Virus record (IMG/VR): IMGVR_UViG_3300037504_000201 | Coordinates: 1 to 64,000 of that record | Direction: 5' to 3' (one strand) | Origin: a virus | Taxonomy: Duplodnaviria; Heunggongvirae; Uroviricota; Caudoviricetes | Length of the DNA stretch: 64,000 nucleotides | Shown here: piece by piece, positions 6,873 to 55,855 of the stretch | Layout of the letters: the number at the start of each line of letters is the position of its first letter | Position numbering within the stretch: the first letter of the stretch is position 1 | The notes under the pieces: model-generated | The model's database searches: none | What the model was told of the DNA's origin: nothing | What the model saw: only the letters and a program-made list of their open reading frames with translations | Position numbers and translations under genes: made by a program

Positions 6873-7167
6873 ACCGATTTTGTGGCACGCCTACGAAACT
6901 GACACGCGCACCGGCGCGCGCCGTCGCTTGACCGAGCGCCCAATGGCGTGGGCGTGGTGCGCGCGGCTGTTCGAGAACTTCAAGTCCTCCAACTCCAACA
7001 ACGGCGTCACCATCATCGACGTCGAGCCGGAGGGCGGGTGGCGCGTCATCGAACACGAGCCAATTATGGTAATTTTGCAAGCGTTCCGCGATGGACAGTT
7101 GGACATGCGCGGCGCGCTACAGGCGATAAAGCAGGTCGGGCAATGTGACCCGACGGATGAGCTGTAA
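6865..7167 (+). CDS. hypothetical protein
   Basis: RBS GGAGGAG. Overlaps the upstream stop. Confidence 0.55.
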   Translation: MPKPILWHAYETDTRTGARRRLTERPMAWAWCARLFENFKSSNSNNGVTIIDVEPEGGWRVIEHEPIMVILQAFRDGQLDMRGALQAIKQVGQCDPTDEL

Positions 7168-7174
7168 AGGAGAG

Positions 7175-7396
7175 ATGATGAAACCAAAGATTAAAAAAGA
7201 AGTCGCCGTGTCTTGGGTGTATAAGCCAGTGGGGATAATCTATTTGTACGCCACGAACGATGCCGCCAACGAGCTATCTGAGTTTGGTGATTTATTCCAG
7301 CGAGATTCAGGCGAGTGGCGCATGATCGTTGATCCAAGATTTGATTTTGATGAAGTGCTTGCGTACATCGAGCGCTACGGAGAAGATAAGAAATGA
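7175..7396 (+). CDS. hypothetical protein
   Basis: Internal Met with RBS AAGGAGAG. Confidence 0.5.
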   Translation: MMKPKIKKEVAVSWVYKPVGIIYLYATNDAANELSEFGDLFQRDSGEWRMIVDPRFDFDEVLAYIERYGEDKK

Positions 7397-8373: not shown

Positions 8374-10149
8374 ATGACAATCACTCTACGCCCTTATCAA
8401 CAAGACGCCGTCGACGCCGCCTGGGTGCGTTTTGCAACCGACCAGAGCACGCTTTTCGCAATGGCGACGGGTTGCGGCAAGACCGCCGCCGCCTGCGGGA
8501 TGGGTGCCAGGCTGGTCGAGGAATACGGTCGGCCTATCCGCACGCTGCTCTTGTGCGACCAGCGGCACCTCACCAAGCAAGCGGTGAAGCACGTCGCCAA
8601 ACACTGGCAACACGTGCTGGGCACGCCGGGTGTGGTGATGGGCAAGCTGGACGAGTACAAACGCGACTTTGTGGCGTGCACCGTCCAGTCGCTCGTGTCG
8701 AACGGGCGCATGGCGCGCCTGCTGAGCAAGCCGGTTGACTTTGTCATCCTCGACGAGTGCCACCACGCTGTGGCACCCACCTGGCAACAGTGCATCGAGG
8801 AGATCAAGGACGCCAACCCCGACGTTAAAATCCTGGGTCTGACCGCCACGCCCCGCCGCACTGACGACGTGGGGCTTGAAAAAGTCTTTGACTCCGTCGC
8901 TTGCCGGTTGAGCATCGCCAAGGCGATTGAGATCGGCGCGCTGTGCCCGTTCGAGGCGCTGGGCTTCCGGCTTGAGCAAGCCGACCTCGACGCGCTGCGC
9001 CAGAACGAGGACGGAGAGTTCATCGACCAAGAAGAGGTGGACCGGATCCTTGAGGCCGCCAACGCCGAAGAGATTGTCATTGAGAAATGGGAAGAGTACG
9101 CGGCAGGACGCCCCACGCTCGTCTTTACCTCGACCGTGGCCCAAGCCTACCGGCTGGCGGCAAAGTTCCACGCCGCCGGGCACAAGTTCTATGCCATTGA
9201 AGGTAACACGCCCCAAGAGGAACGGGACCGGCTGGTCAAGGCCTACCGTGCTGGGGACATTGACGGCATCGTCAATGTGCGTGTGTTCGCCGAGGGGTTC
9301 GACGCCCCTTGGACCGAGTGCATCGCGTTCCTGGCCCCCACCGGCTCAGACCTCGTCTACGTGCAAAAGGTCGGGCGTGGCCTGCGACTCTACCCCGGCA
9401 AGGTCAAGGCGCTGATCCTCGACTTTGTGCCCGCCGGCGAGCGCGACTTCCGTATGGCCGGCGACCTACTGGAAGGCAAGCCCAAGGCTCAGCGCAAGGC
9501 CGAGAGCAAGGCCGCCGACGTAGGTGTGCTGTTCGGCCTGGGCATCAACTCAAAAGGCGAGGGCATCGACGCCGACCCCGACCAAGTGCGAATGATGGTG
9601 CTGGACTATCTGACCAACGGCGCGCGCGACTTGCCCTGGACGCTGTACAAAGACGACGGGCTGGCGACGTGCGCGATCTCGTTTAGTCGCACGCTGGCCG
9701 TCATCCTCAAGGGAGACGGCGACACCCCGCCCGAGGTCGCCGCCCGGCTTGATAAAGCGGACGGGGTCCGGGCGAACGGGGAATGGCAACCCAACTACGA
9801 CCCCGTCTACAAGGCGCTGTTGCGCCAGGACCACGGCAGCTTTAAGGTGCTGGAAGTGCGCGCGATAAAAGAAGAGGGACGCCGCACGCGATACGTCGTG
9901 ACGCCGTTGGGCCGGTCAGAGGATTGGGAGACGGCACGGGACATCGCAGAGCGGCACGCCGACAAGTGGGAAGACAAGCGCGTCGCCCGGCGCCGCAAGC
10001 AGTGGCGGGGTAAGCCGATGTCAGACAAGCAAATCCCGCTGTTGAAAAAGCTGCACATCTACTCGCCAGACCTAGACCGCGGTCAAGCGAGCCAGCTCAT
10101 TGACCACACATTCACCCGCCAGCGCCTTCAGCGCTACGGATATTTGTAA
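8374..10149 (+). CDS. SF2 DEAD/DEAH-box DNA helicase
   Basis: Motif I AMATGCGKT, motif II ILDECHH, motif III TATPRR. RBS AGGAGGGAG. Confidence 0.85.
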   Translation: MTITLRPYQQDAVDAAWVRFATDQSTLFAMATGCGKTAAACGMGARLVEEYGRPIRTLLLCDQRHLTKQAVKHVAKHWQHVLGTPGVVMGKLDEYKRDFVACTVQSLVSNGRMARLLSKPVDFVILDECHHAVAPTWQQCIEEIKDANPDVKILGLTATPRRTDDVGLEKVFDSVACRLSIAKAIEIGALCPFEALGFRLEQADLDALRQNEDGEFIDQEEVDRILEAANAEEIVIEKWEEYAAGRPTLVFTSTVAQAYRLAAKFHAAGHKFYAIEGNTPQEERDRLVKAYRAGDIDGIVNVRVFAEGFDAPWTECIAFLAPTGSDLVYVQKVGRGLRLYPGKVKALILDFVPAGERDFRMAGDLLEGKPKAQRKAESKAADVGVLFGLGINSKGEGIDADPDQVRMMVLDYLTNGARDLPWTLYKDDGLATCAISFSRTLAVILKGDGDTPPEVAARLDKADGVRANGEWQPNYDPVYKALLRQDHGSFKVLEVRAIKEEGRRTRYVVTPLGRSEDWETARDIAERHADKWEDKRVARRRKQWRGKPMSDKQIPLLKKLHIYSPDLDRGQASQLIDHTFTRQRLQRYGYL

Positions 10150-10207: not shown

Positions 10208-11170
10208 ATGAGTACTACTAAAATAGAATGGACCAACAAGACTTGGAATCCCATTACCGGATGCACGAAGGTCAGCGCCGGTTGCCAGCACTGTTATGCA
10301 GAGCGCATGGCGCGGCGGTTGGCCGGGCGCTTTGGCTACCCAGAGGCGCCGCATCATTTCGATGTGACGCTGCACCCCGACCGATTGGACGAACCGCTGC
10401 GCTGGCGCAAGCCACGGCGGGTGTTTGTGTGCTCGATGTCGGATCTGTTTCACGAGGATGTGCCGGATGAGTACATTTGCGATGTATTTTATACAATGCA
10501 TCGATGTACACAGCACACATTCCAGGTGCTCACGAAGCGACCCGCTCGGATGTTGGAGTGGTTCAATCGCCCTGCTGCATCACTCAGTAAGTGGCATAGG
10601 CCGCTACCCAATGTTTGGCTGGGCGTCACCGCCGAAAACCAGAAAGCCGCCGACGAGCGCATACCGCTGCTGCTCAAATGCCCGGCGGCGGTGCGGTTCG
10701 TGAGTTGCGAGCCGTTGCTGGGTGAGATTGTATTGGAAGCTCGCCCGAATGAAAATTGTCGTTCTTGTTTCGGCGCTGGATTCCAGCGCGGCGGAATGAT
10801 TGGCGATGTCGAGTGTCATTGCTGGGGCGATGGGTATCTAGGTAGTAATGGCGGTCCATCGCTCGACTGGGTAATCGTCGGCGGTGAGAGCGGACCCGGC
10901 GCACGCCCGATGGACCCAAGCTGGGCGCGTTCGTTACGTGACCAGTGTCAGGACGCTGGTGTGGCGTTCTTTTTCAAGCAGTGGGGTGAGTGGATTCACG
11001 AAAACCAAGCCAATGATTCATTGCGCCCAACTTCGTGCGGAGGACTAGGGGCTCTGATGGACAGAGGGAAAGTCATAACCCTAGACGGTGAGAGCTTTTT
11101 TTGGCGCGTCGGCAAGAAGCGCGCCGGTCGTCTGCTCGACGGGCGCGAATGGAATGAGTACCCCATCTAA
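10208..11170 (+). CDS. phage Gp37/Gp68 family protein (DUF5131)
   Basis: N-terminus EWTNKTWNPITGCTKVSAGCQHCYAERMA is the signature of this family. Confidence 0.8.
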   Translation: MSTTKIEWTNKTWNPITGCTKVSAGCQHCYAERMARRLAGRFGYPEAPHHFDVTLHPDRLDEPLRWRKPRRVFVCSMSDLFHEDVPDEYICDVFYTMHRCTQHTFQVLTKRPARMLEWFNRPAASLSKWHRPLPNVWLGVTAENQKAADERIPLLLKCPAAVRFVSCEPLLGEIVLEARPNENCRSCFGAGFQRGGMIGDVECHCWGDGYLGSNGGPSLDWVIVGGESGPGARPMDPSWARSLRDQCQDAGVAFFFKQWGEWIHENQANDSLRPTSCGGLGALMDRGKVITLDGESFFWRVGKKRAGRLLDGREWNEYPI

Positions 11171-11369: not shown

Positions 11370-11770
11370 TGATAATCTCAATAGCCATCCACAGGGGCAC
11401 ACTCGCCGTCGTCACCTACGACGGCGCCGAGGTGACGTGCATCAAGACCTTGGCGATGAACCGCACGACGTGGCCCGACCTTTGGAACACGCTGTTCGGT
11501 TACGCCGCCGGCCGGGCACGCCAGAACGGCGGCAAGGTTGGCAAAGTCGTGCTGTACCAGAACGGCGGGGACATATCGGAGACCGAACGGATGTTCGGGT
11601 TGCTGACGGGCGTGGCGGGCGAGTTCAATTGCCCGCTTGAGCGGGCGCATTGTGACGACGAGGATGAGGCGCGCGCGTGGCGCATGTTGCCGGGCGGTGA
11701 GGATACCGCCGTGGCGCTGGCGCTGGGTGCGGCGATGAAGGTGATAAACAGAAAGGAAGATGAAAAATGA
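11369..11770 (+). CDS. RNase H-like fold protein, possible RuvC-like resolvase
   Basis: N-terminus MIISIAIHRGTLAVV and C-terminal ALALGAAMKV are RuvC-like, but the N-terminal Asp is not conserved. Confidence 0.25.
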   Translation: MIISIAIHRGTLAVVTYDGAEVTCIKTLAMNRTTWPDLWNTLFGYAAGRARQNGGKVGKVVLYQNGGDISETERMFGLLTGVAGEFNCPLERAHCDDEDEARAWRMLPGGEDTAVALALGAAMKVINRKEDEK

Positions 11771-12384
11771 AATACCCAAAAATTGAAACGTTGTGGAATC
11801 GCGGGGACGACTTTAAAGTCATGCCCGGAGATTTCAGAATGCCAGAGTTTGTGCTTGTCAAATCTTGGCTGATCACCGAGAAAATTGATGGGCGCAATCA
11901 TCGCGTGATCCTAAACGTAGACGGCACTGTCGAGCATCGCGGACGAACCGACCGCGCGCAATTTGCCGACTTTGAGCTTGAAGCGGCGCAGCGTATCATT
12001 GACGACGATTTGGTGCGCGCCGCCTTCGACCGAGGCTCACAAGCCGTTCTTTACGGGGAGCTGTACGGCCCTAAGATTCAAAAGGGAGGTGTGTATGGTG
12101 ATGAGATTCAGTTTAGACTGTTTGATGTTCGCGTTGGCGATTGGTGGCTAAATTGGAGAGACGTTGAGGATGTGGCGCAAAAGATCAACGTATCGACTGT
12201 GCCGCTGATTTACGAAGATGAATTTTTACCGACCTGCAAGGATGAGCTTGGGGACTATTTTACTGACGGCAGCTATGTCGGCGGCGACAGACCGGAGGGC
12301 ATTGTGGCGCGAACAGACCCTCTTTTATTCACTCGACGCGGAGAGCGTCTAATGTGGAAGCTAAAATTTAAAGATTTCAAATGA
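11767..12384 (+). CDS. ATP-dependent RNA/DNA ligase-like nucleotidyltransferase
   Basis: Motif I TEKIDGRN (KxDG). 205 aa, Rnl2-like size. Confidence 0.6.
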   Translation: MKYPKIETLWNRGDDFKVMPGDFRMPEFVLVKSWLITEKIDGRNHRVILNVDGTVEHRGRTDRAQFADFELEAAQRIIDDDLVRAAFDRGSQAVLYGELYGPKIQKGGVYGDEIQFRLFDVRVGDWWLNWRDVEDVAQKINVSTVPLIYEDEFLPTCKDELGDYFTDGSYVGGDRPEGIVARTDPLLFTRRGERLMWKLKFKDFK

Positions 12385-13367
12385 CCACCACTGACGAACT
12401 CCTTGACCGGCTAGCCCGGCACTTTGGCTCGGGTCGCATCACCGACCAGCGGGGATACACACACGTGGATTGCCCGTTCCCCGGTTGCGACGTCGAGGCC
12501 AAGGACCGCGCTTGTTCGTACTGGCTAAAGGACGGCTACGTCCGGGCCGGGTGCTTCAAGTGCGGCTTGCTGACCAAGGAGTTCCTAGACCTATCCATCG
12601 GCTACCGTTCCAATGGCTCGGCGCCAATCAGACGCGCAAGGCGGCAGAAGAAGGCGCCGCCCAAGCCAACCTACTACGCCTGGAAGCAGCCGGGGCAAGC
12701 GGAGATCATCCTGCGCCAGCAACTCAATCACCCCGATCGGGTGCGGCTTTGGCAAGAGTACCGACCCTTTGACGTGGCGGACTTGGACCGCTGGGAGCAC
12801 GGGGTAGGCGTGCTGCCCAACACCGCTTGTCGCCACCTTCGCCTCACCTATCCCGTCCGAGCACGTGGCGGACGCATCGTGGCGTTCCGGGGGCGCCGGA
12901 TAGACTGTGATTGCCGTGGCAAGTGGCTGACGTGCGGCGGCGGCAAGGTACAAAAGACGCTCATGATCTGCGGGCCGCTTGAACCAGGTCGCGTCGTCGT
13001 CATCGCCGAAAGCCCAATTGACGCACGCCTCGCCTACAAATTTGAGCCCGAGTACACCTACGTGGCATCGGGCGGCGGGGCCGGGCTATGGAACGACGAT
13101 TGGACCAGGCGCATCGCCGCTAGCTCCCCCGCCAAGGTCATCGTGTGGTTTGACAACGACCTCGCCGGTCAAGCGGTTGGGGACACGCGTGATAGGCTCG
13201 CGCGGGAGTGGTGGCTCAAACACCCCAACGCGCCACGCGGGCCGATTGCGAACGGGATTAGACTTTTTAACCGATTGCGGTTCAAGCTCCCCGTCGAGTT
13301 GTACGACTGGGGGGATGCACCGCCCAAGAGCGACATAAGCAGTTTGATAATAAGGAGGATGAAGTGA
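12381..13367 (+). CDS. DNA primase (zinc finger plus Toprim)
   Basis: N-terminal Cys cluster. IAESPIDA and WFDNDLAGQ resemble Toprim E and DxD motifs. Confidence 0.6.
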   Translation: MTTTDELLDRLARHFGSGRITDQRGYTHVDCPFPGCDVEAKDRACSYWLKDGYVRAGCFKCGLLTKEFLDLSIGYRSNGSAPIRRARRQKKAPPKPTYYAWKQPGQAEIILRQQLNHPDRVRLWQEYRPFDVADLDRWEHGVGVLPNTACRHLRLTYPVRARGGRIVAFRGRRIDCDCRGKWLTCGGGKVQKTLMICGPLEPGRVVVIAESPIDARLAYKFEPEYTYVASGGGAGLWNDDWTRRIAASSPAKVIVWFDNDLAGQAVGDTRDRLAREWWLKHPNAPRGPIANGIRLFNRLRFKLPVELYDWGDAPPKSDISSLIIRRMK

Positions 13368-14479: not shown

Positions 14480-14673
14480 ACCTAACCCCCAAGACTTTCG
14501 CGTCCTACGACAAGAACGAGCTGGACGAACAGGAGCGCGCGTTCCTTGCTGGCACGTCAGGCGTCGTGCGCAAGATGGACTTTAACGTCACCGAAGTGGA
14601 CGACAGGCCATTCTTCGCCGTTCACATATTGTACGAAGAGTTCCCAGATCACACACAGATAAAGGAGGTATGA
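14476..14673 (+). CDS. hypothetical protein
   Basis: Internal Met overlapping the upstream stop. Confidence 0.4.
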   Translation: MNLTPKTFASYDKNELDEQERAFLAGTSGVVRKMDFNVTEVDDRPFFAVHILYEEFPDHTQIKEV

Positions 14674-15275
14674 TGAGTGACGATCCGCTTTTGGACAAAT
14701 ACGGACTAAAACCAGAAGACGTGATGGTATGCTTTCTCGAACGCGCAATAGGAGCGCACCCTACAGTTCTGTACTTTCTGAGCGAGGCAACCTACTGCCC
14801 GGAAAGCCCGTCCATGTTCGATGGCTCTTTGTCAAATGACTTTGACCGAACATCAAAGCTGCTAGAGAAGATGCTTTACGATGCGCTTCCAGGCGGCACT
14901 TATGACCGATTGCTTGCGCGAATGCAGCAACGCAAAGCGAGCCATTACGCATTCTCGTATGGCTTACACGGCAACGGCGCGGGCAAGTGGGAGAGAAAAG
15001 TAATCGCAGAGGTAGTGGGGCTATTTGAGATTCAACGCGAGAGTGAGTGGGGGAAAGATAAAGAAGTTTACTCGGCTGTCAAGAACGCCGATGACGCCAT
15101 ACACCTACTCGACGAATCTGTGATCCATTCCGCGTTTGCAAGCATTGACAATGTCCGACAGTTCGTTCTTCTATTCTTTAAAAATTGGTCAGAAGATGAC
15201 GGCGAAACAATGCAAGAGAGATGTTACGCCGCCGTCAACAAAGCCAACCAAAAAATGACAGGCAAGGAGGTATGA
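14670..15275 (+). CDS. hypothetical protein, paralog A
   Basis: RBS AAGGAGG. Shares LPGGTYDRLL...RKAS with 15272-15799. Lower-GC segment. Confidence 0.55.
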   Translation: MMSDDPLLDKYGLKPEDVMVCFLERAIGAHPTVLYFLSEATYCPESPSMFDGSLSNDFDRTSKLLEKMLYDALPGGTYDRLLARMQQRKASHYAFSYGLHGNGAGKWERKVIAEVVGLFEIQRESEWGKDKEVYSAVKNADDAIHLLDESVIHSAFASIDNVRQFVLLFFKNWSEDDGETMQERCYAAVNKANQKMTGKEV

Positions 15276-15799
15276 TGCACAAGCTAAAGATCAACAAGGC
15301 GACAGATTCAGAGGGTGGGACGCTCGTCATTGATGAGCGAGGGCTGGACGGCACAGCCGATACAGGAGTGCTACTGTCATTCTACGAAGGTGAAGCCGAG
15401 AAGTTAGAGCGATTCCTGTACAACACGCTCCCCGGCGGCACCTACGACCGGTTGCTATCCGATATGATGACGCGCAAGGCGAGCTTGTTCAAGGTGCGAT
15501 GGGGGGATGGCAATGCCTCAGAGCCGCCAGGAAAACCGTTCCGATGGGACGGCGAGATTGTCCAGCGAGTCCTGGACAAGTGCCACGAGTTGCCTGGCTT
15601 ACGTGACTGCATTGACACCACCGACAGCGCTCGCAAGCTACTCAACGACTCAACACTCGTGCCCGGACTCGATGGTCTGGATAGCGTGATGGTGTGGATG
15701 GAGCGATTTATGGCGAACTGGCCCCCCGCAATAGGGATGACGGAAAGCGAACGTTATCTTTTCGCCGTCAACAAAGCCAACAGCATAGGTGGTTTGTAG
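15272..15799 (+). CDS. hypothetical protein, paralog B
   Basis: Identical RBS context AAGGAGGTATGATG. Paralog of 14670-15275. Confidence 0.55.
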   Translation: MMHKLKINKATDSEGGTLVIDERGLDGTADTGVLLSFYEGEAEKLERFLYNTLPGGTYDRLLSDMMTRKASLFKVRWGDGNASEPPGKPFRWDGEIVQRVLDKCHELPGLRDCIDTTDSARKLLNDSTLVPGLDGLDSVMVWMERFMANWPPAIGMTESERYLFAVNKANSIGGL

Positions 15800-15801
15800 T
15801 G

Positions 15802-16062
15802 ATGGACGAGATATCCATATTTGAGCTAAAATGGACAGATACCGTTGTTGACGGCGTGATTGATATGTGCGAGACTTGGGACGTCGGAAGGTTTATCAAT
15901 ACGCGCGCAGACGTCGAGTTGCTGTTGTATTGCGCCGACTTGCGCGGCAAGGACATGTACACATGGTCATTCGATTTTACCAAGGCCCTGGTCGCCAACA
16001 AGGGCATGACCAGCGACCTTGAGCGATACAGAGACGCGATAAGGAGCGCGAACGATGACTAA
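15802..16062 (+). CDS. hypothetical protein
   Basis: Internal Met after RBS AGGTGG. Confidence 0.4.
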   Translation: MDEISIFELKWTDTVVDGVIDMCETWDVGRFINTRADVELLLYCADLRGKDMYTWSFDFTKALVANKGMTSDLERYRDAIRSANDD

Positions 16063-16924
16063 CCCACTATCCAACTCACTCGCCATCTTCGACTTGTCAG
16101 GCACGCTCACAGTCGAGCGGGGCGGCCCACCCAACATGCCCGGCGAGGTGGTGTTGGTTGACGGTGCGCGGGACGTGGTGCGCTGGCTTGAAAATAGCAG
16201 CGCCAGCGTTTACATCGCGTCCAACCAAGGCGGGGTCGCATACGGCTACCTTGACATCGACACGTGCGACGCGATTATGTCTAGATGCGCGATGCTGCTT
16301 GATCTTCCCAAAGAGCGCTTCTTCTGGTGCCCCCATCACCCCAAGGGCAACGTCAGCCCCTGGAACAAGGCTTGTTACAACCGCAAGCCCAACCCCGGCA
16401 TGCTCTTGACCATCATGCAAGAGACTGGCGTCCCATCCAAGCGAACGCTGTTCGTCGGGGACCGTAAAAGCGACGTAGACGCCGCGGGGCGAGCTGGCGC
16501 GCACTATGTCCACGCATCGCCGATTCGGCACGTGTTCGGGCGCGCCTGGTCGCTCTTCTCCCGGCCCGTCTTTATCATCGACGGTACCGAGGTTGCGCGC
16601 GACCTACGCGTCAAGCTGGTCAAGAAAGGGATCGAAGGCGATTTTTTAGACGAGATGATAGAGCTGTACGTCGGCCCGGCGATTGACGATGTTGAGCCGA
16701 CCTTCACACACAACAGCAAGCTATTCTACGCTGTCGATGGTGACGACGGCACCGTGACACAGCTGGCCCAAGTCGGTGCCCAGCGCATCGAGTACGTGGA
16801 GCAAGACACGTTCGACCGATTTGCCGAGATCAAACGTCGCTTGCACGGCGGGTGTAGCGACGACGTGTTGGTGGATTTGTTTGTTGAGCATCTACTCGTC
16901 GAGCGTGGTTACGCGACGAGATGA
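16055..16924 (+). CDS. HAD-superfamily phosphatase (GmhB/PNKP 3'-phosphatase-like) with extra C-terminal domain
   Basis: FDLSGTL (motif I variant), RKPNPGM and GDRKSDV, the HAD IIIA signatures. Confidence 0.6.
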   Translation: MTNPLSNSLAIFDLSGTLTVERGGPPNMPGEVVLVDGARDVVRWLENSSASVYIASNQGGVAYGYLDIDTCDAIMSRCAMLLDLPKERFFWCPHHPKGNVSPWNKACYNRKPNPGMLLTIMQETGVPSKRTLFVGDRKSDVDAAGRAGAHYVHASPIRHVFGRAWSLFSRPVFIIDGTEVARDLRVKLVKKGIEGDFLDEMIELYVGPAIDDVEPTFTHNSKLFYAVDGDDGTVTQLAQVGAQRIEYVEQDTFDRFAEIKRRLHGGCSDDVLVDLFVEHLLVERGYATR

Positions 16925-17033
16925 AGCATGGGGCGTGATCTCACACAGAAAGGAGGATGCTCCGCTAAATTGGCAATGAGGGAATGCCCCCGGCGGTACG
17001 TGCCCCGCCGCCGGGGCAAGCGGAGTGAGTAAT

Positions 17034-17243
17034 ATGACGAGAGCTGTAAGAATGGCAACTGGATTAGTTTTTATGGCCCTTCTGTTGCTACATCCACTGA
17101 GTAGGTCTGTGATTTATTTTTTACTACCATTGGGTAGTGGCGCAGATGATTACGTGGCGATTGCTTTGTTGGTGATCGCCGCAACAATCTTGTTCATCAA
17201 GGGATGGACAAGTATTCCAGATTTTTTCAAGAAAGGAAAGTGA
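17034..17243 (+). CDS. small two-TM membrane protein (possible SPFH partner)
   Basis: Two hydrophobic helices. Lower GC. Immediately upstream of the SPFH gene. Confidence 0.5.
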   Translation: MTRAVRMATGLVFMALLLLHPLSRSVIYFLLPLGSGADDYVAIALLVIAATILFIKGWTSIPDFFKKGK

Positions 17244-17244
17244 T

Positions 17245-18117
17245 ATGTACAAGTTTCGTTTTGTTCTCGCATTGGTTGTTCTGTCGCTACTGATTAGCGG
17301 ATGTTACTTACCGGGTACCGTGGATAGCTCCGAGGTCGGTCTGAAGATTACAAGCGGTAAGGTCGAGGATGTCCTGGAGCCTGGGCGCTACACCGACGTG
17401 GGTTGGTATACGTCTCTCGCTACCGTGGATACGTCTGCGAAGACCACTGACTGGAAGGACCCGGACCTGGTGACTAGAGATAAACAGCCCATCGGCCTTA
17501 CTATCTCGGTGACCTACGCACGAAACCGTGACCACAAGTCTATTAAACAGATGTGGACCCAGTACAATACAGAGGCGCGAGACGATAAAGCGCTGGCTGC
17601 ACAGGTGCTTAAACGTGTCCCTGGCGCAGCTAAGGACCTTACTACCCGTTACAGCCTGGACGAGATGCTCGGGATTACGCCAGACGCCCCTGGTCGGGCT
17701 ATCGTGACCCAAGCGCTATTCGACGCCTTAGAGCCGGAGCTTGAGGAGATCGGCATCAGTTTGCTCAATGTCACCATCGGTAACATTGCCCCGAGTGAAC
17801 AGTATCTTAATCTCTTGGAGGAAAAGGCCAATGCGCAAGCATCTACAGAGGTAGCGCGGGAGATGACTAAACAGCTTGAGGAACAGCTCAAACAAGAGGA
17901 AGCTCAAACCCAAATCGAGTTGGAGAAGGCACGTCGTCAGAACGAGGTCAATTCTGAACTAGCAAAGACGTATGAGCAATCGCCTGAATACTTTGAGCTG
18001 GAGAAGCTACGCTTGATGCAGGGCGTGATCGGCGGTAAAGACAAGCTCATTTTTATTCCACCCGGTACCGACCTGTCGTTATTGTTCTCTGCTGATGGAT
18101 TAGTCCCGCTTCAATGA
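17245..18117 (+). CDS. SPFH/band-7 (HflK/prohibitin-like) domain lipoprotein
   Basis: Signal peptide with lipobox LLISGC. EVGLKITSGKVEDVLEPGRY and a C-terminal coiled coil typical of SPFH. GC content is clearly below the surrounding genome. Confidence 0.7.
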   Translation: MYKFRFVLALVVLSLLISGCYLPGTVDSSEVGLKITSGKVEDVLEPGRYTDVGWYTSLATVDTSAKTTDWKDPDLVTRDKQPIGLTISVTYARNRDHKSIKQMWTQYNTEARDDKALAAQVLKRVPGAAKDLTTRYSLDEMLGITPDAPGRAIVTQALFDALEPELEEIGISLLNVTIGNIAPSEQYLNLLEEKANAQASTEVAREMTKQLEEQLKQEEAQTQIELEKARRQNEVNSELAKTYEQSPEYFELEKLRLMQGVIGGKDKLIFIPPGTDLSLLFSADGLVPLQ

Positions 18118-18305
18118 ACGAATACTCATTCAACCTGGCAGGCTGGACGGCGCATCGAGAAGACACGGTGCTGACGATGCTACTGGCAAACGTGATACAA
18201 GACCGGGTCACCGTCAACGTCGAGCCGGGCAGTCAAGTAGACGGCGCGGGCGTGGTGATGCAATGCGACGAGGAACGCGCCAAGGCCATCGTGGGCGTGG
18301 CGTAA
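18114..18305 (+). CDS. hypothetical protein
   Basis: ATGA overlap with the upstream gene. Confidence 0.4.
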   Translation: MNEYSFNLAGWTAHREDTVLTMLLANVIQDRVTVNVEPGSQVDGAGVVMQCDEERAKAIVGVA

Positions 18306-30579: not shown

Positions 30580-33500
30580 TTAAGCCTTCTCGAACACCGA
30601 TGCCAGGTCATTCATGATAATCGCGGCGGCAGCGTCTGCCACCTTGCCGCCAATCTGGTCTCCCAAGCCGCTCACATTCACATCCACGCGCCCGCCGACG
30701 TTCACATTTTGCGGCGCCATCGTCGGGGTGCCGGGGAGCGCCATCTGGGCCGGGCTGGCGGCGCCGCCAAGGGCGCCGGATGCGTATACGTACTCACGCA
30801 CGCCCGGCTCGACGACGAAGGCGTGTGGGCCGGTCACCACGCCAGAGAATCCGTGTTGCACCGCGTCGGTGGGCATTTGGTATCCGCCAGGGCGTTGGTA
30901 GCCCGTCGCGCCGACCGGCGTCTGTCGCGCTGACATCCGAGCGTTGAACTGCGCAATCATCGCCTCATACTGAGCAATGTACGCTTGCAAGTCGGCAAGC
31001 TCTTGGTTGTATTGCTGGCGCTTGATCTCGATTTGATTGTTAGCTGCCTCTTGCTCGCGCCGTACCTCTTCTTGCAAGCTTTGATTCAGCGCCGCCAGCC
31101 GTTGCTGGTACGCCTCTTCTGCCGCGCGTTGTTGCTCGGCGTAATTGCGGCTTTCGGTGCGCACCTGCTCGCTGTAGTTCTGCTCCTCGTCCATCACGGC
31201 TTCGTCGCGTGCTTCACGCGCCTCTATAATGGCGAGGGCATTGCGCTCAATCGCTGCCTTGCGCACCGTGATGTCATAGTCGCGCTGGATGTCGCGCAGG
31301 CGTTGGCGATGTGCGCGCTCGATGTCCTCCATTCGCATGCGGTGGGCGCGTTCGTTCTTGGCGCGCTGGGATTGATAATCGCTGCTAAGCTGGTTGCGCC
31401 GCGCGAGGGCGTCTTGGCGGATCTGTGTGATGTTGTCTTGTGTATCGCGCTCGATCTGCTCGACCTCGGCGCCCATCTGACGTTGAATGTCGGCCTCTTG
31501 CTCTTGCGCCGCCGTCAATTCCTCATAGGCCGCGCCCTTGTCCTTCATCACGCGGATAGTCTCAAGCGTTGACTCGATGCTCTCACGCTCGGCGTTGCTC
31601 AGCTCAATGATGCCTTCCTTGGCTTGTTCTGTGTATTCGACCAGCTCCTGCTCGGTGATAATCCCGCGCGCATAGGCCTCGCTCAGCATCTCCATCGTGT
31701 CGCGCGCCTGGACCTGCTCCCACGACGTCTCGCCCAGCGCAACGGCAAGAGCGTTCTGCTTCGCCGCTAGCACCTCGGGGTCCATATCCACGTCGCCCAG
31801 GCCCCCGCGCGCAAGCTGCACTGCCTCTTCGCCCAGGGCAGATCGCTCTTGCAACGCGATAAGCTCTTCTTCTTCGAGCTTGAGACTCGCCGCCGCAAGC
31901 TGAGCCTTGGCGAACGCCTTCTCGACACCGCTAAGATTCTCTACCTTCCACTCAAGCCATTCGACCAGCGCCGCCGTGCTATCGCCCATCTCATCGACGA
32001 TTTGCGTGTACTTCCACGCGGCCTCACTGGCTTGCCCTATCGCCTCGGCATGCTTGGGCAGTTCTTCATTTGCCTCTTGCACGGCCCGGATGTACTCCGG
32101 GTAGCTCTGGCTTGATAATTGCAATAGCGTCTGAATCTCTTCTTCTTGTGCGTTGACAAGCGATTCTTCGTCCATGTGATTGCGCGCGACCCAGTATCTG
32201 TAATCTTCAAGCGGTCCCTCTGAATCGTATAGCGCCGCGCTGACATCGCGCCGCTTTTGCGCATAGTCCTGCGCGATAGCGATGGCTGATTGTTCTTCGC
32301 CGCCTACCTCGCGGATGGACTCAAGGTATTCACTCCATTGATCCTTGGTTTCCTCTGTCCCATCGCGCACTTCGGCACTAACTTTTTCGACTTGCTTGAA
32401 CATCACAACGAGGCCGCCAATAGCCGCAGCAAGGGCAGCGAACGGTGCCGCCGCGGACGCAGCACCGACTGCCAACTCTTTCAGCCCGCCCAGCATCGCG
32501 CCGGTCCCGCCGACGTTCTTGAGCGCGCTCAGATATTGCAGGTTACCCTTTAGCCCGGCGCTGATCTTTGTGGCGACGGTGTTCTGCCCCATCGCACCGG
32601 TCTGCGCGATAAGCGCCTTGTTCTCCGTCGCCAGCGCCGCCGCGTGGGCCGCTGCTGCCGTCGCCGCCGCCTGCTTGGCGAGGATGAACGGCGTAAACAG
32701 CGTACTCGCCATCTGCAAAAAGTTGGTGAATTTAGAGAAGAACGGGCCAATACCGGACTGGTCGATCAGGTTGTTGACGACGTTGGTCACTCGCTGAACG
32801 GACACACCGAATTGGTCATAGGAGTCGGTGGCCTTGGTGACCCCGTCCGGGAATTCCTCAAGCTGCTTGTCCGCCTGCTGCAAGAGCGCGTTCCATATCG
32901 CCATAGATCGCTCTTGGCTTGATAATTCCCCCGTCGTCTTGCCAAGCCGCTCTGCCGTCATCTCCAGCGCGTCGTTGAGCTTGATGGTGATGCCCAACTC
33001 GTCAAGGAATTCAACCTCGGCCTTGACGGCGCCGTAGGACATACGGGTGAAGGCGGCTTCTGTGGTCAGCCCGAACTGCTTGGATTTTAGCCGGGCAAAC
33101 TCCATCATCTGCGCCATGTCCTCGACGCTGGTCTCAAAGTTAGCGCCGAGCACCATGTTAGACACTTGCATGATGTTGTTGGCCGATACGGTGCCGTTCG
33201 CCGCGCGTTGCATCGCGTCAACCAGCTCGTCACCGGACAGCCCGGCGCGCTCGGCGAGGTGGTCGAACGACTCTGACATGTCGCGCAGTTGCGCGCCTTG
33301 CCGGCCCATCTGCGCGAATTGCTGCCCGACTTCGTTCCACGTGTCCAGCATTTCGTCGCCAGCCGCGCGGAATTGACGCCCCATATTCTCAAAGTGACCC
33401 AGCATCCCGTCAAGGTCTTGCTCGATGAGCACAACCTTGTCATGGGCCTCTTGGGCCATCTCGGCAAAGGCGCGCTGAATGTCCTCTGACGCGCCGGACG

Positions 33501-33633
33501 CCTGGTCACCTACTGAACCATACTTGGATTCCAGGTTATCCAACATGGCGACGAGGCGCGAGGCTTTGCCCTCGACGTCCTGAATGTCCATCTGGACCAG
33601 GATTTTGATAATGTCCTCGCGCGTCATCGCCAT
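30580..33633 (-). CDS. tape measure protein
   Basis: 1017 aa, extensively coiled-coil, with Gly/Ala-rich hydrophobic segments. Follows the chaperone genes. Confidence 0.8.
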   Translation of the reverse strand: MAMTREDIIKILVQMDIQDVEGKASRLVAMLDNLESKYGSVGDQASGASEDIQRAFAEMAQEAHDKVVLIEQDLDGMLGHFENMGRQFRAAGDEMLDTWNEVGQQFAQMGRQGAQLRDMSESFDHLAERAGLSGDELVDAMQRAANGTVSANNIMQVSNMVLGANFETSVEDMAQMMEFARLKSKQFGLTTEAAFTRMSYGAVKAEVEFLDELGITIKLNDALEMTAERLGKTTGELSSQERSMAIWNALLQQADKQLEEFPDGVTKATDSYDQFGVSVQRVTNVVNNLIDQSGIGPFFSKFTNFLQMASTLFTPFILAKQAAATAAAAHAAALATENKALIAQTGAMGQNTVATKISAGLKGNLQYLSALKNVGGTGAMLGGLKELAVGAASAAAPFAALAAAIGGLVVMFKQVEKVSAEVRDGTEETKDQWSEYLESIREVGGEEQSAIAIAQDYAQKRRDVSAALYDSEGPLEDYRYWVARNHMDEESLVNAQEEEIQTLLQLSSQSYPEYIRAVQEANEELPKHAEAIGQASEAAWKYTQIVDEMGDSTAALVEWLEWKVENLSGVEKAFAKAQLAAASLKLEEEELIALQERSALGEEAVQLARGGLGDVDMDPEVLAAKQNALAVALGETSWEQVQARDTMEMLSEAYARGIITEQELVEYTEQAKEGIIELSNAERESIESTLETIRVMKDKGAAYEELTAAQEQEADIQRQMGAEVEQIERDTQDNITQIRQDALARRNQLSSDYQSQRAKNERAHRMRMEDIERAHRQRLRDIQRDYDITVRKAAIERNALAIIEAREARDEAVMDEEQNYSEQVRTESRNYAEQQRAAEEAYQQRLAALNQSLQEEVRREQEAANNQIEIKRQQYNQELADLQAYIAQYEAMIAQFNARMSARQTPVGATGYQRPGGYQMPTDAVQHGFSGVVTGPHAFVVEPGVREYVYASGALGGAASPAQMALPGTPTMAPQNVNVGGRVDVNVSGLGDQIGGKVADAAAAIIMNDLASVFEKA

Positions 33634-41837: not shown

Positions 41838-43265
41838 CTAAGCGCTGCACTTGAGTGCGGCGGCTCGCCAAGGCTCCATGAGCTTGCCGCCCACGCGCCT
41901 GCGAATCTGGAACTCGACCTTGTTGATCCCGGTATTGGAGTCGTTGTAGCGCACCACGGACAATCCGGCGCGCTCGACGATGATATACCCGGCCAGGTCG
42001 ATAAACACGATGGGGTAAGCGCTTGCCGCGATGTCGGGCATCGCCTCGGTCTCGGCGACCTGGAACCCGAACAGCCGGTCACCGGATTCGGCGGTGTCAA
42101 AGTAGAAGCGACCGAACCCGTCTTGCCAAAGCTCGATCTCGGCGGCGGTGTCAGAGTTCATCAGCCACACCGCGCGTCTGTCTGCGCGATATTGGCTGGC
42201 GATCTGGCGCCGAAGCTGCTTTGTGGTCGTGATCTGGATGTCATCCGCCACGCCCGTATCCAGCTCGGTGATCCCATCTTCCAGCGTGGTCCCGCCGGGA
42301 ACGATACCGCGCGGCTCACCCGCAACGCCCGTCCCGGCCACAAAGGCGTCGTCCTCGTCAACCGCCAGCGTGGTCGAAACCTGTGCAGAGAAGACGTCCT
42401 CGATGTTCTGCCCGTCCTCAAGGAAAGACACGGACATCGGGACCTTGTAGGTGTACAGCTCGACGGGAATCTCTTCAGTCCCGAAGGTTAGGTTGGTCTC
42501 TTCGGGGCTTTGCGTCTCGTCGCCCCACTTGCCGCGCAGGGCCGTTGGGTAGCGCTCGTCGGTGCTGGCGCCGGTGAGCTTGATCCAGCGCATAGAGCTG
42601 GACACGGTCTGAACGACCGTGGCGCCGTAGCGCCGGACGGCGGTCAGCCCAGCCATGCGAGTGATAATCCGGTCGGCGATTTGCGGAGGGACCGCGTAGC
42701 CGCCCAGAATGTCAACGCCCTCGACCATCGTCGCTTTGACCTCAGAGATGGAGTAGCCGGACTTGACCATGTCCAACACGGTGTCCGGGCTCCAGTATTG
42801 AGAATACAAGCTCTTCAGATCGTAACCCTTGCGTGCGGCGGTCTCGCCCCAGCGCATGTAAGCGGTGAACGCTTGCTTTTGGTCCCACAGCAATTGGCGC
42901 CAGTCGGCGCTCTTGGTGCTGCCGTAGGCCTCGCCCATCACTAGGTCGGTGTGCTCGTCCACGTCGCCGTAGCGCAACACCTGGATGGTCTTGTAGATTT
43001 TGCTCTTGTCGGCGCCTTTGTTCTCGCCTTCCGCCGGTTCGCCACCCATCGGCAATCGGTCGCCGCCGGCGGGTTGCGCGTCGCTCTCGGTCAGCTCGGC
43101 GTAGCTGTCAAGGCTCTTGAGCGCTTCGATTTGCGCCTTGAACTTGTCCAGTTGAGGTTGCACCTCTTCCTGGAACGCCTTTAAGCTCATCTCGCCAGCG
43201 GACATCTTGGCCCGGCTGTCGTCGATGAGTGCCTTCATCTTTTTCTGCAACTCTTGAATCGTCAT
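41838..43265 (-). CDS. major capsid protein (HK97 fold) with N-terminal coiled-coil delta/scaffold domain
   Basis: 475 aa. N-terminal 100-aa coiled coil. Position after the protease. RBS TAGGAGAG. Confidence 0.65.
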   Translation of the reverse strand: MTIQELQKKMKALIDDSRAKMSAGEMSLKAFQEEVQPQLDKFKAQIEALKSLDSYAELTESDAQPAGGDRLPMGGEPAEGENKGADKSKIYKTIQVLRYGDVDEHTDLVMGEAYGSTKSADWRQLLWDQKQAFTAYMRWGETAARKGYDLKSLYSQYWSPDTVLDMVKSGYSISEVKATMVEGVDILGGYAVPPQIADRIITRMAGLTAVRRYGATVVQTVSSSMRWIKLTGASTDERYPTALRGKWGDETQSPEETNLTFGTEEIPVELYTYKVPMSVSFLEDGQNIEDVFSAQVSTTLAVDEDDAFVAGTGVAGEPRGIVPGGTTLEDGITELDTGVADDIQITTTKQLRRQIASQYRADRRAVWLMNSDTAAEIELWQDGFGRFYFDTAESGDRLFGFQVAETEAMPDIAASAYPIVFIDLAGYIIVERAGLSVVRYNDSNTGINKVEFQIRRRVGGKLMEPWRAAALKCSA

Positions 43266-46522: not shown

Positions 46523-47143
46523 TTAACCGTGCCTCGTTAACGAGTACAACAATCCAGCGTCAAAGTTCTCATTAATGACATCCTCACTCCACCTCGATCG
46601 CACCTCGTCGGCAGTCATTCCCAGCTTCTGCTCAAGCCTCTTGATCTCGGCTTGCTCTTCGTCGCCAGTCATTATGCCGTCGTAACCAAGAAACCAACGA
46701 ATTGCTTTAAACCATCCTGGATTACGATAAGGCTCTTTGTTGTCCAGAACTATGTCAATAAACTCTCTCAGCGCCGTCGCGTAATCTCTTAGCGCTTCAA
46801 CCAGGCACAATCCCTCACCATAGCAAAACGTCACGTCGTCGTTGACGATAAAGTGGCATCGCCCATCCCGCTCTATGTTTATGGCATAACGCATACTCAT
46901 ACCGTGATCATTATCATTAATTGGGGCGTCTCTTGATTGTGTCGGTCTATCGTCGGGAAGCTGTGGTATATCACGGTACACTATGATGCATTCATTGCAG
47001 GCATTAGACGTCGCGCATCCAACTTGCCCCAGGTCGCCACCGTATTTGCTCTTGTCCGGATCGACAGCGACAAAGACGGGCATGTCGCCAAACGCATTAA
47101 GATGAACCTGTAATTGGTGGATCAACTCAGATAGTGACGCCAT
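46523..47143 (-). CDS. hypothetical protein (lower-GC moron)
   Basis: RBS GAAGGGG. Cys-rich. GC below the genome mean. Confidence 0.5.
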   Translation of the reverse strand: MASLSELIHQLQVHLNAFGDMPVFVAVDPDKSKYGGDLGQVGCATSNACNECIIVYRDIPQLPDDRPTQSRDAPINDNDHGMSMRYAINIERDGRCHFIVNDDVTFCYGEGLCLVEALRDYATALREFIDIVLDNKEPYRNPGWFKAIRWFLGYDGIMTGDEEQAEIKRLEQKLGMTADEVRSRWSEDVINENFDAGLLYSLTRHG

Positions 47144-49770: not shown

Positions 49771-49952
49771 TACTCTTCGCCTTCCTCCGCCTCGACCACG
49801 TAATACCACGGCGTCTGCTTGGCAATTTCGTGCGGCGTGTCGCTGGGGACGATGACGGAGGCGATAACGCCCTCTTCTAGCTCTTTACCTTGAACCTCGT
49901 AAAGCTTGCGGTCGCCGTGTTTGTCCGGGTCATAGTCGATGTATCTGGGCAT
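49770..49952 (-). CDS. small acidic protein
   Basis: TAATG coupling to the portal stop, with RBS GGAGG. Confidence 0.4.
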   Translation of the reverse strand: MPRYIDYDPDKHGDRKLYEVQGKELEEGVIASVIVPSDTPHEIAKQTPWYYVVEAEEGEE

Positions 49953-55690: not shown

Positions 55691-55696
55691 ATTACA

Positions 55697-55726
55697 AGTA
55701 TACACCATACCGTGTATGGTTGTCAA
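55697..55726 (-). promoter_or_regulatory. leaderless promoter class C, copy 2
   Basis: TTGACA-ACCATACACGGTATGGTG-TATACT-TGTAAT-ATG. Confidence 0.7.
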
Positions 55727-55747
55727 CGGGCGGGAATGGTAAAAGTG

Positions 55748-55855
55748 TACACGGTTCCGTGTAACTTAGCCGACTTAGTTTTAGCTCTTAAAACATTATA
55801 TATATATTTTAAGGGAATCAATTATGTCAAATTGATTGCTCTTGAATGCACTAGG
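55748..55855. repeat. AT-rich palindromic element, copy 7 (hairpin-extension type)
   Basis: TACACGGTTCCGTGTA, CTTAGCCGACTTAGTTTTAGCTC, spacer, arm GAATCAATTATGTCAAATTGATT, extension TGAATGCACTAG. The minus-strand TTGACA-18-TATATATA is in sense. Confidence 0.75.

What the first reader, a model, noticed from the sequence alone, without database searches (positions are those of the whole stretch)
17034..18117. Low-GC moron encoding an SPFH/band-7 lipoprotein plus a small membrane protein
The two-gene cassette 17034-17243 / 17245-18117 has clearly lower GC and different codon usage from its neighbours (roughly 50% against over 60%). It is preceded by a GC hairpin at 16985-17020.

The larger protein has a lipoprotein signal (MYKFRFVLALVVLSLLISGC) and an SPFH domain with a C-terminal coiled coil. 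The upstream 70-aa two-TM protein is in the position that NfeD-like partners occupy in bacterial SPFH operons.

A phage-borne membrane-scaffold pair suggests a role in superinfection exclusion, in modulating a membrane protease (HflK/C acts on FtsH, which in turn controls phage lysis-lysogeny regulators), or in lysis timing. It is clearly a horizontally acquired accessory module.
Basis: partly seen in the sequence, partly recalled or inferred. Interest (0 to 1): 0.7.

Follow-up and report, generated by a model that had tools for sequence, protein, structure and literature searches.

The report
Mobile lipoprotein SPFH plus membrane partner
A novel tailed phage carries a two-gene membrane module, a lipid-anchored prohibitin/HflK-like scaffold protein and a previously undescribed 70-residue membrane partner, that also occurs in unrelated phage-like contigs and in Chloroflexota chromosomes; its role in infection is untested.

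Summary
Two translationally coupled genes sit at 17034-17243 and 17245-18117 (+). The larger is an SPFH/Band_7 protein (Pfam E=2.8e-24) with a family-conserved lipobox cysteine. Its AlphaFold model (pLDDT 87) matches prohibitin, HflK/C, stomatin and QmcA cage subunits along its full length.

The small gene is not NfeD. It founds an unannotated family of about 160 representatives among 1.84 billion proteins. The family has two hydrophobic helices flanking an invariant NPxTR...LPLGSGxDD signature. The partner lies directly upstream of the SPFH gene in 13 of 15 distinct loci, and 3 of 3 partner-first look-ups found Band_7 immediately downstream. In one genome the two are fused in frame.

Only these two genes are shared between the window and about 20 other loci: diverse phage-like contigs and Anaerolineae chromosomes. 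So it is a mobile accessory pair.

The composition claim is overstated. The cassette is 50% GC against 57.7% for the window, not over 60%. Only the small gene is a clear outlier. The hairpin is unremarkable, and the pair is embedded in the replication-gene operon, not an insulated moron.

The most likely mechanism is an extracytoplasmic SPFH ring or cage with the partner as its transmembrane subunit. The biological role (membrane-client control, superinfection exclusion or other) remains inference. I rate it a new variant of a known kind, of moderate interest.

The parts
16985..17018 (+). GC-rich stem-loop in the 109-nt spacer upstream of the cassette. It is not demonstrably functional.
   Evidence: RNA fold gives -24.6 kcal/mol, but z=0.14 against dinucleotide shuffles. 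There is no U-tract and no terminator call. No Rfam match.
17022..17025 (+). GGAG Shine-Dalgarno-like element 8 nt upstream of ATG 17034
   Evidence: Read directly from the sequence. It favours ATG 17034 over GTG 17025 as the start.
17034..17243 (+). Partner gene encoding a 69-aa membrane protein. It has a basic N-terminus, helix 1, the NPxTR-type turn (HPLSR here), a short hydrophobic segment, the invariant LPLGSGxDD loop (residues 31-39), helix 2 and a basic C-terminus.
   Evidence: ORF. Hydropathy and charge distribution. Family alignments A3 and A5 show invariant P21, L31, P32, G34, D38 and D39. 160 representatives were found, and the motif is strict in 118 of 150. No Pfam, NCBIfam or PADLOC family matches. 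The AF2 model has low confidence (pLDDT 64), with helices at 3-18, 21-30 and 38-67.
17245..17304 (+). Lipoprotein signal peptide and lipobox (MYKFRFVLALVVLSLLISG|C; Cys20 codon at 17302-17304)
   Evidence: Read from the sequence. G19 and C20 are >=90% conserved in 48 homologues. The model shows an N-terminal helix at residues 2-17.
17245..18117 (+). SPFH/Band_7 lipoprotein gene (290 aa). Domains are SPFH1 beta region 22-93, SPFH2 97-183, long helix CC1 185-245, CC2 247-258, and a conserved C-terminal DKxxFxP tail.
   Evidence: Pfam Band_7 at 2.8e-24 and phrog_200 at 6e-30. AF2 pLDDT 87. Foldseek against PDB matches PHB1/2, HflC/K, stomatin, erlin and QmcA at E 4e-13 to 2e-8. The PDB profile search matches prohibitin-2 at 7e-12 and HflK residues 83-353 at 7e-10. 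61 homologues at 25-100% identity (60 of them at 40% or more).
18114..18305 (+). Downstream 63-aa ORF whose ATG overlaps the SPFH stop (ATGA). It is not part of the mobile pair but shows the pair is embedded in the operon.
   Evidence: Sequence. GC3 is 0.75, typical for this phage. It is a called gene in L001 and is not shared with any other locus.

Best explanation
The cassette is a mobile two-gene membrane module of the kind found in host (Anaerolineae) chromosomes.

- Gene 2 encodes an SPFH protein that is exported and lipid-anchored through Cys20. Its SPFH1-SPFH2-coiled-coil body therefore lies on the outer face of the cytoplasmic membrane, the same side as HflK/C.
- Like every solved full-length relative, it most likely assembles into a closed ring or dome that fences off a patch of membrane.
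- Gene 1 encodes the membrane-spanning subunit that the lipid-anchored SPFH lacks. It is a two-helix hairpin with both ends in the cytoplasm, and its invariant LPLGSGxDD loop sits at the outer membrane face, where it can contact the SPFH base.
- The two are made in fixed proportion by translational coupling.
- In the phage, the pair is transcribed with the replication-arm genes. It probably acts during infection to scaffold or shield a membrane microdomain or a membrane client.

Shown: the domain identities, lipobox conservation, strict gene linkage in both directions, one natural fusion, mobility, and operon embedding.

Inferred: lipidation, oligomeric cage formation, partner-SPFH contact, partner topology, and the biological role.
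For: - SPFH identity and full-length cage-subunit fold.
- Lipobox conserved across the family.
- The partner lies immediately upstream in 13 of 15 distinct loci, mostly -4 to +9 nt from the SPFH start.
- The reverse test also holds: 3 of 3 partner-first look-ups have Band_7 immediately downstream.
- Natural in-frame fusion P0025 (partner, then signal/lipobox, then SPFH) was verified on DNA. It only makes topological sense if the partner C-terminus is cytoplasmic and the SPFH body is outside.
- Both partner termini are basic, consistent with the positive-inside rule.
- The partner signature is conserved across 150 representatives.
- Apart from DUF5131 in L010/L011 and three isolated weak ORF matches, only the two genes are shared among unrelated phage-like contigs and Anaerolineae chromosomal loci. 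Phage and cellular copies are interleaved in an NJ tree.
- The 1-nt gap and internal RBS between the genes, and the ATGA overlap with the downstream ORF, are read from the sequence.
Against: - No experiment exists and no multimer model could be built. Ring assembly and partner contact are argued by analogy with solved relatives that share only 14-20% identity.
- The partner model has low confidence (pLDDT 64).
- Two Ardenticatenales contigs have the SPFH lipoprotein with no partner within 0.6-1.3 kb. The partner may therefore not be obligatory, or it may be encoded elsewhere.
- The fusion rests on a single metagenomic contig.
- Lipoprotein processing in the unknown, presumed Chloroflexota host is assumed.
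- Nothing identifies the client or the benefit to the phage.
Confidence: 0.5

Rival explanations
1. Superinfection-exclusion device. The early-expressed surface lipoprotein and its small membrane partner would cover or alter the cytoplasmic-membrane site used for genome entry by later phages. This would resemble the lipoprotein exclusion proteins Llp of T5 and Ltp of TP-J34 (my own knowledge, not checked here).
For: The protein has an extracytoplasmic lipoprotein topology. It is co-transcribed with early/replication genes. It recurs as accessory cargo in many unrelated phage-like contigs. In Vi01-like phages an SPFH gene lies next to an annotated superinfection-exclusion gene, but this is annotation only.
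Against: The same pair is an ordinary chromosomal operon in several Anaerolineae genomes with no phage genes nearby. That points to a cellular housekeeping or stress role, not a phage-specific one. There are no PADLOC hits. No exclusion protein is known with an SPFH fold (literature searches).
Confidence: 0.2
2. An HflK/C-like modulator of the host FtsH protease. The phage-made cage would enclose FtsH and change the turnover of phage or host membrane and regulatory proteins, for example in a lysis-lysogeny decision.
For: HflK and prohibitin are the best sequence-profile matches, aligned nearly full length. The protein has the same extracytoplasmic orientation as HflK/C. Solved HflK/C and prohibitin cages hold FtsH or m-AAA proteases (PDB titles; PMC13220708 and PMC13376388 abstracts).
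Against: The NCBIfam hflK and hflC models score 18-20 bits against cut-offs of 159 and 134. There is a single SPFH gene, not a K/C pair, and a lipid anchor in place of the N-terminal TM helix. No integrase or repressor was found among the window ORFs scanned, although that scan was not exhaustive and 13.7 kb of the contig lies outside the window. An FtsH interaction cannot be tested here.
Confidence: 0.12
3. Lysis module. The small two-TM protein would be a class-II-type holin or antiholin, and the lipoprotein a spanin-like or lysis-timing factor.
For: The partner has generic holin features: about 70 aa, two TM helices and a charged C-terminus. The larger protein is a lipoprotein with a coiled coil. 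An endolysin lies 2-4 kb away in two other contigs.
Against: No endolysin is adjacent in any locus. The window cassette lies in the replication arm, on the opposite strand to the late genes. The pair occurs in chromosomal, non-phage contexts and as a fusion protein. The SPFH protein lacks the C-terminal TM segment of a unimolecular spanin. The invariant loop motif is unlike that of any holin family in Pfam or PHROGs.
Confidence: 0.05
4. Functionally inert passenger. The low GC would simply reflect a hydrophobic small ORF plus a recently captured host gene that gives the phage no selected role.
For: Only the short gene is a strong compositional outlier. Partner genes have lower overall GC than their genome in all the loci compared, though their GC3 is usually within 2 SD of resident genes. 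The phage carries several other low-GC ORFs.
Against: Both ORFs are intact. The pair is retained, with its coupling, in at least 10 different phage-like genomes at 44-60% identity, and its GC is ameliorated to each genome. Invariant residues are maintained.
Confidence: 0.05

Closest known systems
HflK/HflC (E. coli FtsH-modulating SPFH cage; PDB 7VHP, 7VHQ, 7WI3, 9CZ2)
   Same: The domain order SPFH1-SPFH2-CC1-CC2-C-terminal tail aligns over HflK residues 83-353, with Foldseek E about 1e-12. The body is predicted to sit on the extracytoplasmic side of the cytoplasmic membrane.
   Different: Identity is only 18-20%. The NCBIfam hflK and hflC models score far below their cut-offs. There is one SPFH gene, not a K/C heteropair. 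A lipobox cysteine replaces the N-terminal transmembrane helix. A separate two-TM partner gene is present. No link to FtsH has been shown.
Prohibitin PHB1/PHB2 complex (PDB 8RRH, 9O9Z, 9URZ)
   Same: This is the best sequence-profile hit (7e-12) and the best fold hit (4e-13). It shares the cage-subunit architecture.
   Different: It is eukaryotic and mitochondrial, anchored by a TM helix and hetero-oligomeric. Identity is 15-17%.
SPFH-NfeD operons (QmcA-YbbJ, PDB 8Z5G; FloA-NfeD; PH1511-PH1510)
   Same: A small membrane-protein gene lies immediately next to, and is co-transcribed with, an SPFH gene. QmcA-YbbJ forms a cage of SPFH-partner heterodimers (PMC13086221; PDB title).
   Different: The partner here has no NfeD OB-fold domain and no PF01957 hit in 34 members. 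It carries a different invariant signature, NPxTR...LPLGSGxDD. QmcA protrudes into the cytoplasm, whereas this SPFH is predicted to be external and lipid-anchored.
Other phage and giant-virus SPFH/Band-7 proteins (Rhizobium phage Pasto, Vibrio phage pVa5, Streptomyces phage StarPlatinum 'band-7-like membrane protein', Vi01-like and T4-like phages; phrog_200 'lipoprotein')
   Same: These are phage-borne SPFH proteins of unknown role, annotated as accessory or moron genes.
   Different: Identity is <=19%. tblastn found no match in 50,697 GenBank phages at E<=1e-5. None has been reported with this partner family, and none has been functionally tested in the literature searched.

Membership tests
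SPFH / Band 7 superfamily | Match to the SPFH domain model above the curated threshold | tested here: met
   PF01145 scores 86.6 bits against a cut-off of 23.6, E=2.8e-24, residues 25-212.
SPFH / Band 7 superfamily | Cage-subunit architecture: SPFH1 and SPFH2 followed by long coiled-coil helices and a C-terminal tail | tested here: met
   The AF2 model (pLDDT 87) has a beta-rich region at 22-93, an alpha/beta region at 97-183, and helices at 185-245 and 247-258. Near-full-length Foldseek alignments (243-323 columns) to PHB, HflK/C, stomatin, erlin and QmcA.
SPFH / Band 7 superfamily | Assembly into a large ring or cage oligomer on a membrane | not testable with these tools
   Only monomer prediction was available. 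This needs multimer modelling, native PAGE or cryo-EM.
HflK/HflC | Equivalog-level sequence match to the hflK or hflC models | tested here: not met
   TIGR01933 scores 18.3 bits against a cut-off of 159.4. TIGR01932 scores 19.6 bits against a cut-off of 134.4.
HflK/HflC | Two paralogous SPFH genes (K and C) in tandem, each with an N-terminal TM anchor | tested here: not met
   Each locus has a single SPFH gene, and the upstream gene is a 70-aa non-SPFH protein. The anchor is a lipobox Cys, not a TM helix.
HflK/HflC | Physical and functional association with the FtsH protease | not testable with these tools
   The host is unknown and no interaction data exist.
NfeD (partner gene) | C-terminal soluble NfeD OB-fold domain (PF01957) | tested here: not met
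   No PF01957 hit at E<=1 for the window protein, nor at E<=0.1 for any of the 34 family members. The protein has only about 13 residues after helix 2.
NfeD (partner gene) | Membrane protein encoded adjacent to an SPFH gene in one operon | tested here: met
   There is a 1-nt gap in the window. Adjacency holds in 13 of 15 loci and in 3 of 3 reverse look-ups.
Bacterial lipoprotein | Signal peptide ending in a lipobox [LVI][ASTVI][GAS]C, with the Cys conserved | tested here: met
   The sequence reads MYKFR-FVLALVVLSLL-ISG-C20. G19 and C20 are >=90% conserved in 48 sequences. Actual acylation was not testable.
Phage moron (strict sense) | Own promoter and terminator allowing autonomous expression | tested here: not met
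   There is no + strand promoter-like site in 16925-17033 and no terminator-like site after 18117. The upstream hairpin lacks a U-tract and does not differ from shuffled sequences. The SPFH stop overlaps the next ORF's start. The scans use E. coli-type consensus sequences, so this is weak negative evidence.
Phage moron (strict sense) | Present or absent between conserved flanking genes in related phages | tested here: inconclusive
   No close relatives of this phage with long contigs were found. The indirect evidence is strong: the flanks are unrelated in all other carriers.
Phage moron (strict sense) | Atypical base composition | tested here: inconclusive
   The partner GC3 has z about -3.8, but the SPFH GC3 has z about -1.4 and its codon-usage distance is ordinary.
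Holin / spanin lysis proteins | Adjacency to an endolysin. For a unimolecular spanin, an N-terminal lipobox plus a C-terminal TM segment. | tested here: not met
   No lysis-family hit was found among the neighbours scanned. The SPFH model has no C-terminal hydrophobic helix.
Known anti-phage defence systems (PADLOC) | Match to any defence-system protein model | tested here: not met
   There were no significant hits for SPFH or for the three partner variants tested.

The most novel reading that the evidence does not exclude
The pair would be a previously unrecognised type of SPFH machine: a lipid-anchored, homo-oligomeric cage on the outside of the cytoplasmic membrane. Its transmembrane fence would be supplied in trans by a dedicated LPLGSGxDD hairpin protein. 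Phages of Chloroflexota would repeatedly capture this machine to seal or shield a membrane patch during infection, for example to block genome entry by competing phages or to sequester a host membrane protease or channel.
Probability: 0.2. Interest if true: 0.75.

Novelty: new variant of a known kind. Interest (0 to 1): 0.5.

Why it matters
- SPFH proteins are universal membrane scaffolds whose cage structures were solved only recently. What defines their membrane fence and their clients is still debated.
- A natural split design, with a lipid-anchored dome plus a separate minimal two-helix membrane subunit that is once found fused, would be a simple system for asking how SPFH cages attach to and partition a membrane.
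- SPFH genes have been annotated in many phages for 20 years with no function shown. A compact two-gene module, repeatedly exchanged between phages and Chloroflexota hosts, is a tractable case for finding out what phages gain from them.
- The work also defines an unannotated small-protein family of about 160 representatives and gives it a clear functional context.

Tried and rejected
- GenBank phage searches with 8 kb of DNA (blastn) and with the SPFH protein (tblastn) found no match. The phage has no sequenced relatives.
- An IMG/VR scan with the single SPFH protein found nothing. The alignment-based scan found only 3 loci.
It worked with a 12-sequence alignment.
- The core-versus-accessory test failed. 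Relatives of the flanking HAD gene were only distant domain hits at 35% identity. Capsid relatives at 47% identity were short structural fragments without the cassette region.
- The combined alignment for modelling the natural fusion P0025 (A4) was rejected, because MAFFT placed the partner sequences against the SPFH N-terminus. The partner was modelled alone instead, and that model has low confidence.
- The afdb50 fold library was unavailable.
- The word-indexed search with the single partner sequence found only 2 hits. Alignment and profile searches were needed.
- I considered and rejected four readings: the hairpin as an intrinsic terminator; the partner as NfeD; the pair as a defence system; and the antisense ORF 17308-17712 as a gene, since its apparent conservation is the mirror of the SPFH gene.
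- A resemblance of GSGxDD to the GxGD motif of intramembrane aspartyl proteases was noted. I did not pursue it, because the spacing differs and the protein is too small.
Full report
**What the window is.** The 64-kb window is part of a tailed phage. It encodes a portal (49952-52396, -), a major capsid protein (41838-43265, -) and a tape-measure protein (30580-33633, -). A + strand arm carries a helicase (8374-10149), DUF5131, an RNA ligase (11767-12384), a primase (12381-13367) and a HAD/PNK-phosphatase-like protein (16055-16924). It has no nucleotide match in 50,697 GenBank phages, and the SPFH protein has no tblastn match there. An identical SPFH protein is recorded on a 77,750-bp JGI contig.

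**Checking the observation.**
- The two ORFs exist as stated. The partner starts at ATG 17034, with GGAG 8 nt upstream, and stops at 17241-17243. The SPFH gene starts 1 nt later at 17245, with an AGGAAAG ribosome-binding site inside the partner's 3' end. It stops at 18115-18117, overlapping the ATG (18114) of the next ORF. The pair is therefore translationally coupled internally and embedded in a longer co-directional operon.
- The hairpin at 16985-18 folds at -24.6 kcal/mol. Dinucleotide shuffles fold equally well (z=0.14). It has no U-tract and no terminator or promoter call, and no Rfam family fits.
- Composition: the cassette is 50.0% GC against a 57.7% window mean, which is the 0.7th percentile of same-sized windows. 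Gene by gene, the partner is the lowest-GC ORF of 86 (GC 0.42; GC3 0.41 against a mean of 0.68-0.69; z about -3 to -3.8). The SPFH gene is only about 1-1.4 SD low (GC3 0.59, rank 14 of 86), and its codon-usage distance to the genome is ordinary (14th of 23 similar-sized genes).
- The neighbours are 59-60% GC, not over 60%, and the surrounding 14-20 kb is patchy.
- In twelve other genomes that carry the pair, both genes mostly lie within 2 SD of resident GC3. The pair is therefore ameliorated wherever it lives. Partner genes have lower overall GC than their genome in all the loci compared.

**The large protein.**
- Pfam Band_7 matches at E=2.8e-24, and PHROG 200 ('lipoprotein') at 6e-30.
- The signal peptide ends in ISG-C20. 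In a 48-sequence alignment G19 and C20 are >=90% conserved, as is the tyrosine that follows in most sequences.
- An AlphaFold2 model built with that alignment is confident (pLDDT 87). It shows a signal helix, a beta-rich SPFH1, an alpha/beta SPFH2, a 61-residue helix (185-245), a second helix (247-258) and a conserved tail.
- A profile search of PDB sequences ranks prohibitin-2 first (7e-12) and then HflK (7e-10, aligned over HflK residues 83-353).
- Foldseek ranks PHB1/2, HflC/K, stomatin, erlin, flotillin and QmcA, all cage or ring formers, at E 4e-13 to 3e-8.
- It is not an HflK or HflC equivalog (18-20 bits against cut-offs of 134-159), and it hits no PADLOC defence model.
- Viral SPFH proteins with the same fold are common (Rhizobium phage Pasto, Vibrio phage pVa5, Streptomyces phage StarPlatinum, giant viruses), but they share <=19% identity.

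**The small protein.**
- It has no Pfam, NCBIfam, PHROG or PADLOC family.
- Aligning the upstream ORFs from other loci revealed a clear family with invariant P21, R24, L31, P32, G34, D38 and D39. The signature is (N)PxTR-x6-LPLGSGxDD, lying between two hydrophobic helices.
- An exhaustive profile search of 1.84 billion representatives found 160 members (90 at E<=1e-10), with a median length of 84 aa. Of 150 listed, 118 have a strict PxGxGxDD motif, and 107 of those also have PxxR upstream.
- None of 34 members hits NfeD or any other common Pfam family.
- Both termini are basic and acid-free while the loop carries DD. By the positive-inside rule, the ends are cytoplasmic and the signature faces outward.
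- The AF2 model is low-confidence (pLDDT 64) but gives helices at 3-18, 21-30 and 38-67, with the LPLGSG stretch unstructured.

**Linkage of the two genes.**
- The signature occurs once per locus and always directly upstream of the SPFH gene, in 13 of 15 distinct loci. The gap is -4 to +9 nt in most.
- It is absent from two short Ardenticatenales contigs.
- In the reverse direction, three partner-family proteins from contigs not seen before each have a Band_7 gene immediately downstream.
- One family member, P0025 (371 aa), is an in-frame fusion of partner, SPFH signal/lipobox and SPFH body. It was verified on its DNA, in a bacterial-type neighbourhood.
- The fusion is topologically coherent only if the partner C-terminus is cytoplasmic and the SPFH body external, which agrees with the lipoprotein reading.

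**Mobility and distribution.**
- A BLASTP of all window ORFs against all fetched loci shows that, apart from DUF5131 in L010/L011 and three isolated weak ORF matches, only the two cassette genes are shared.
- Some carriers are long phage-like contigs of 50-121 kb with 40-55% GC. They have dense co-directional small ORFs and terminase-like, endolysin, helicase, primase or partition genes. Three carriers are IMG/VR contigs.
- Other carriers are Chloroflexota MAGs (Anaerolineae, Anaerolineales, Ardenticatenales), plus one Microgenomates bin.
- The cellular copies sit among ordinary chromosomal genes, each in a different neighbourhood: PUFA synthase and a histidine kinase; GSDH, DUF2079 and an XPB helicase; LigA, SpoIIE, AlkZ and a two-component system; rho.
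- In an unbootstrapped NJ tree, phage and cellular copies are interleaved. The window copy groups with the Anaerolineae copies at 56-60% identity. This suggests repeated exchange and a Chloroflexota host, but the direction of transfer is unresolved.

**Mechanism.**
- Established knowledge of solved relatives is that full-length SPFH proteins form closed rings or domes that delimit a membrane patch. HflK/C and prohibitin cages enclose AAA proteases, and QmcA forms a cage of heterodimers with its NfeD partner (PDB titles; abstracts; PMC13086221).
- By analogy, the best-supported reading is an extracytoplasmic, lipid-anchored SPFH ring. Its membrane-spanning element would be supplied in trans by the hairpin partner.
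- The domain identities, lipobox conservation, linkage, fusion, mobility and operon context are shown. The acylation, oligomerisation, partner contact and biological role are inferred.
- For the role in infection, I rank general membrane-microdomain or client control first. Superinfection exclusion is second: it fits the surface lipoprotein and early expression, but it is weakened by the chromosomal housekeeping-type copies. FtsH modulation is third. A lysis function is unlikely.
- The literature held here only annotates phage SPFH genes and offers no functional test.

**Verdict.** It contains a new partner family, a lipoprotein SPFH subfamily, and a mobile, sometimes fused, gene pair. The 'low-GC moron' framing is only partly right, the NfeD analogy is positional only, and function is unproven. 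I rate it a new variant of a known kind, with interest about 0.5.

Noticed in passing
window 57651-57721 (-): A type II hammerhead ribozyme lies in the gap between divergent ORFs 57137-57646 (-) and 57769-58248 (+). It matches Rfam RF02276 at 41 bits (gathering score 37), E=6e-5.
   Followed up: no
window 14670-15275 and 15221-15799 (+): These are tandem paralogous ORFs of unknown function, 32% identical (E=2e-19), sharing an LPGGTYDRLL...RKAS motif. Neither has a Pfam or PHROG family.
   Followed up: partly
window 11767-12384 and 16055-16924 (+): An RNA ligase (Pfam RNA_ligase, 5e-19) and a HAD/PNK-3'-phosphatase-like protein (PNK3P, 1.9e-5) sit in the same arm. Together they could form an RNA-repair set of the kind phages use against tRNA-cleaving defences.
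   Followed up: no
window 10208-11170; L010 2375-3184; L024 187-975; contig of P0069: A DUF5131 gene lies 5-7 kb upstream of the SPFH pair in four otherwise unrelated phage-like contigs. The window copy (320 aa) is about 75 aa longer than the Pfam model (243 positions).
   Followed up: no
window 7145-7396, 46523-47143, 53734-54300, 55616-55891: These are other small low-GC, low-GC3 ORFs scattered through the genome (GC 0.43-0.49). The SPFH cassette is therefore not the only compositionally odd insert. Two of them have no Pfam hit.
   Followed up: partly
P0192, P0222, P0233, P0242 (partner-family representatives): A subset of partner-family proteins carries an extra C-terminal soluble extension of about 150 aa after the two-helix core. 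That extension would be cytoplasmic under the proposed topology.
   Followed up: no
L002 8337-9311; contig of P0069: An actin-like ALP_N/ParM-type partition protein (phrog_691, 5e-43) is encoded within a few kb of the SPFH pair in two carriers. Some carriers may therefore be phage-plasmids, not strictly lytic phages.
   Followed up: no
L021 7974-8917: In the Microgenomates OLB22 bin the SPFH gene is split into two ORFs, by a frameshift or an assembly error. Its partner has a divergent loop (LPYGMKPDD), and the pair sits directly after rho.
   Followed up: no
window 61160-61957 (-): An N6/N4 DNA methyltransferase (Pfam 8e-27) lies at the far end of the window.
   Followed up: no
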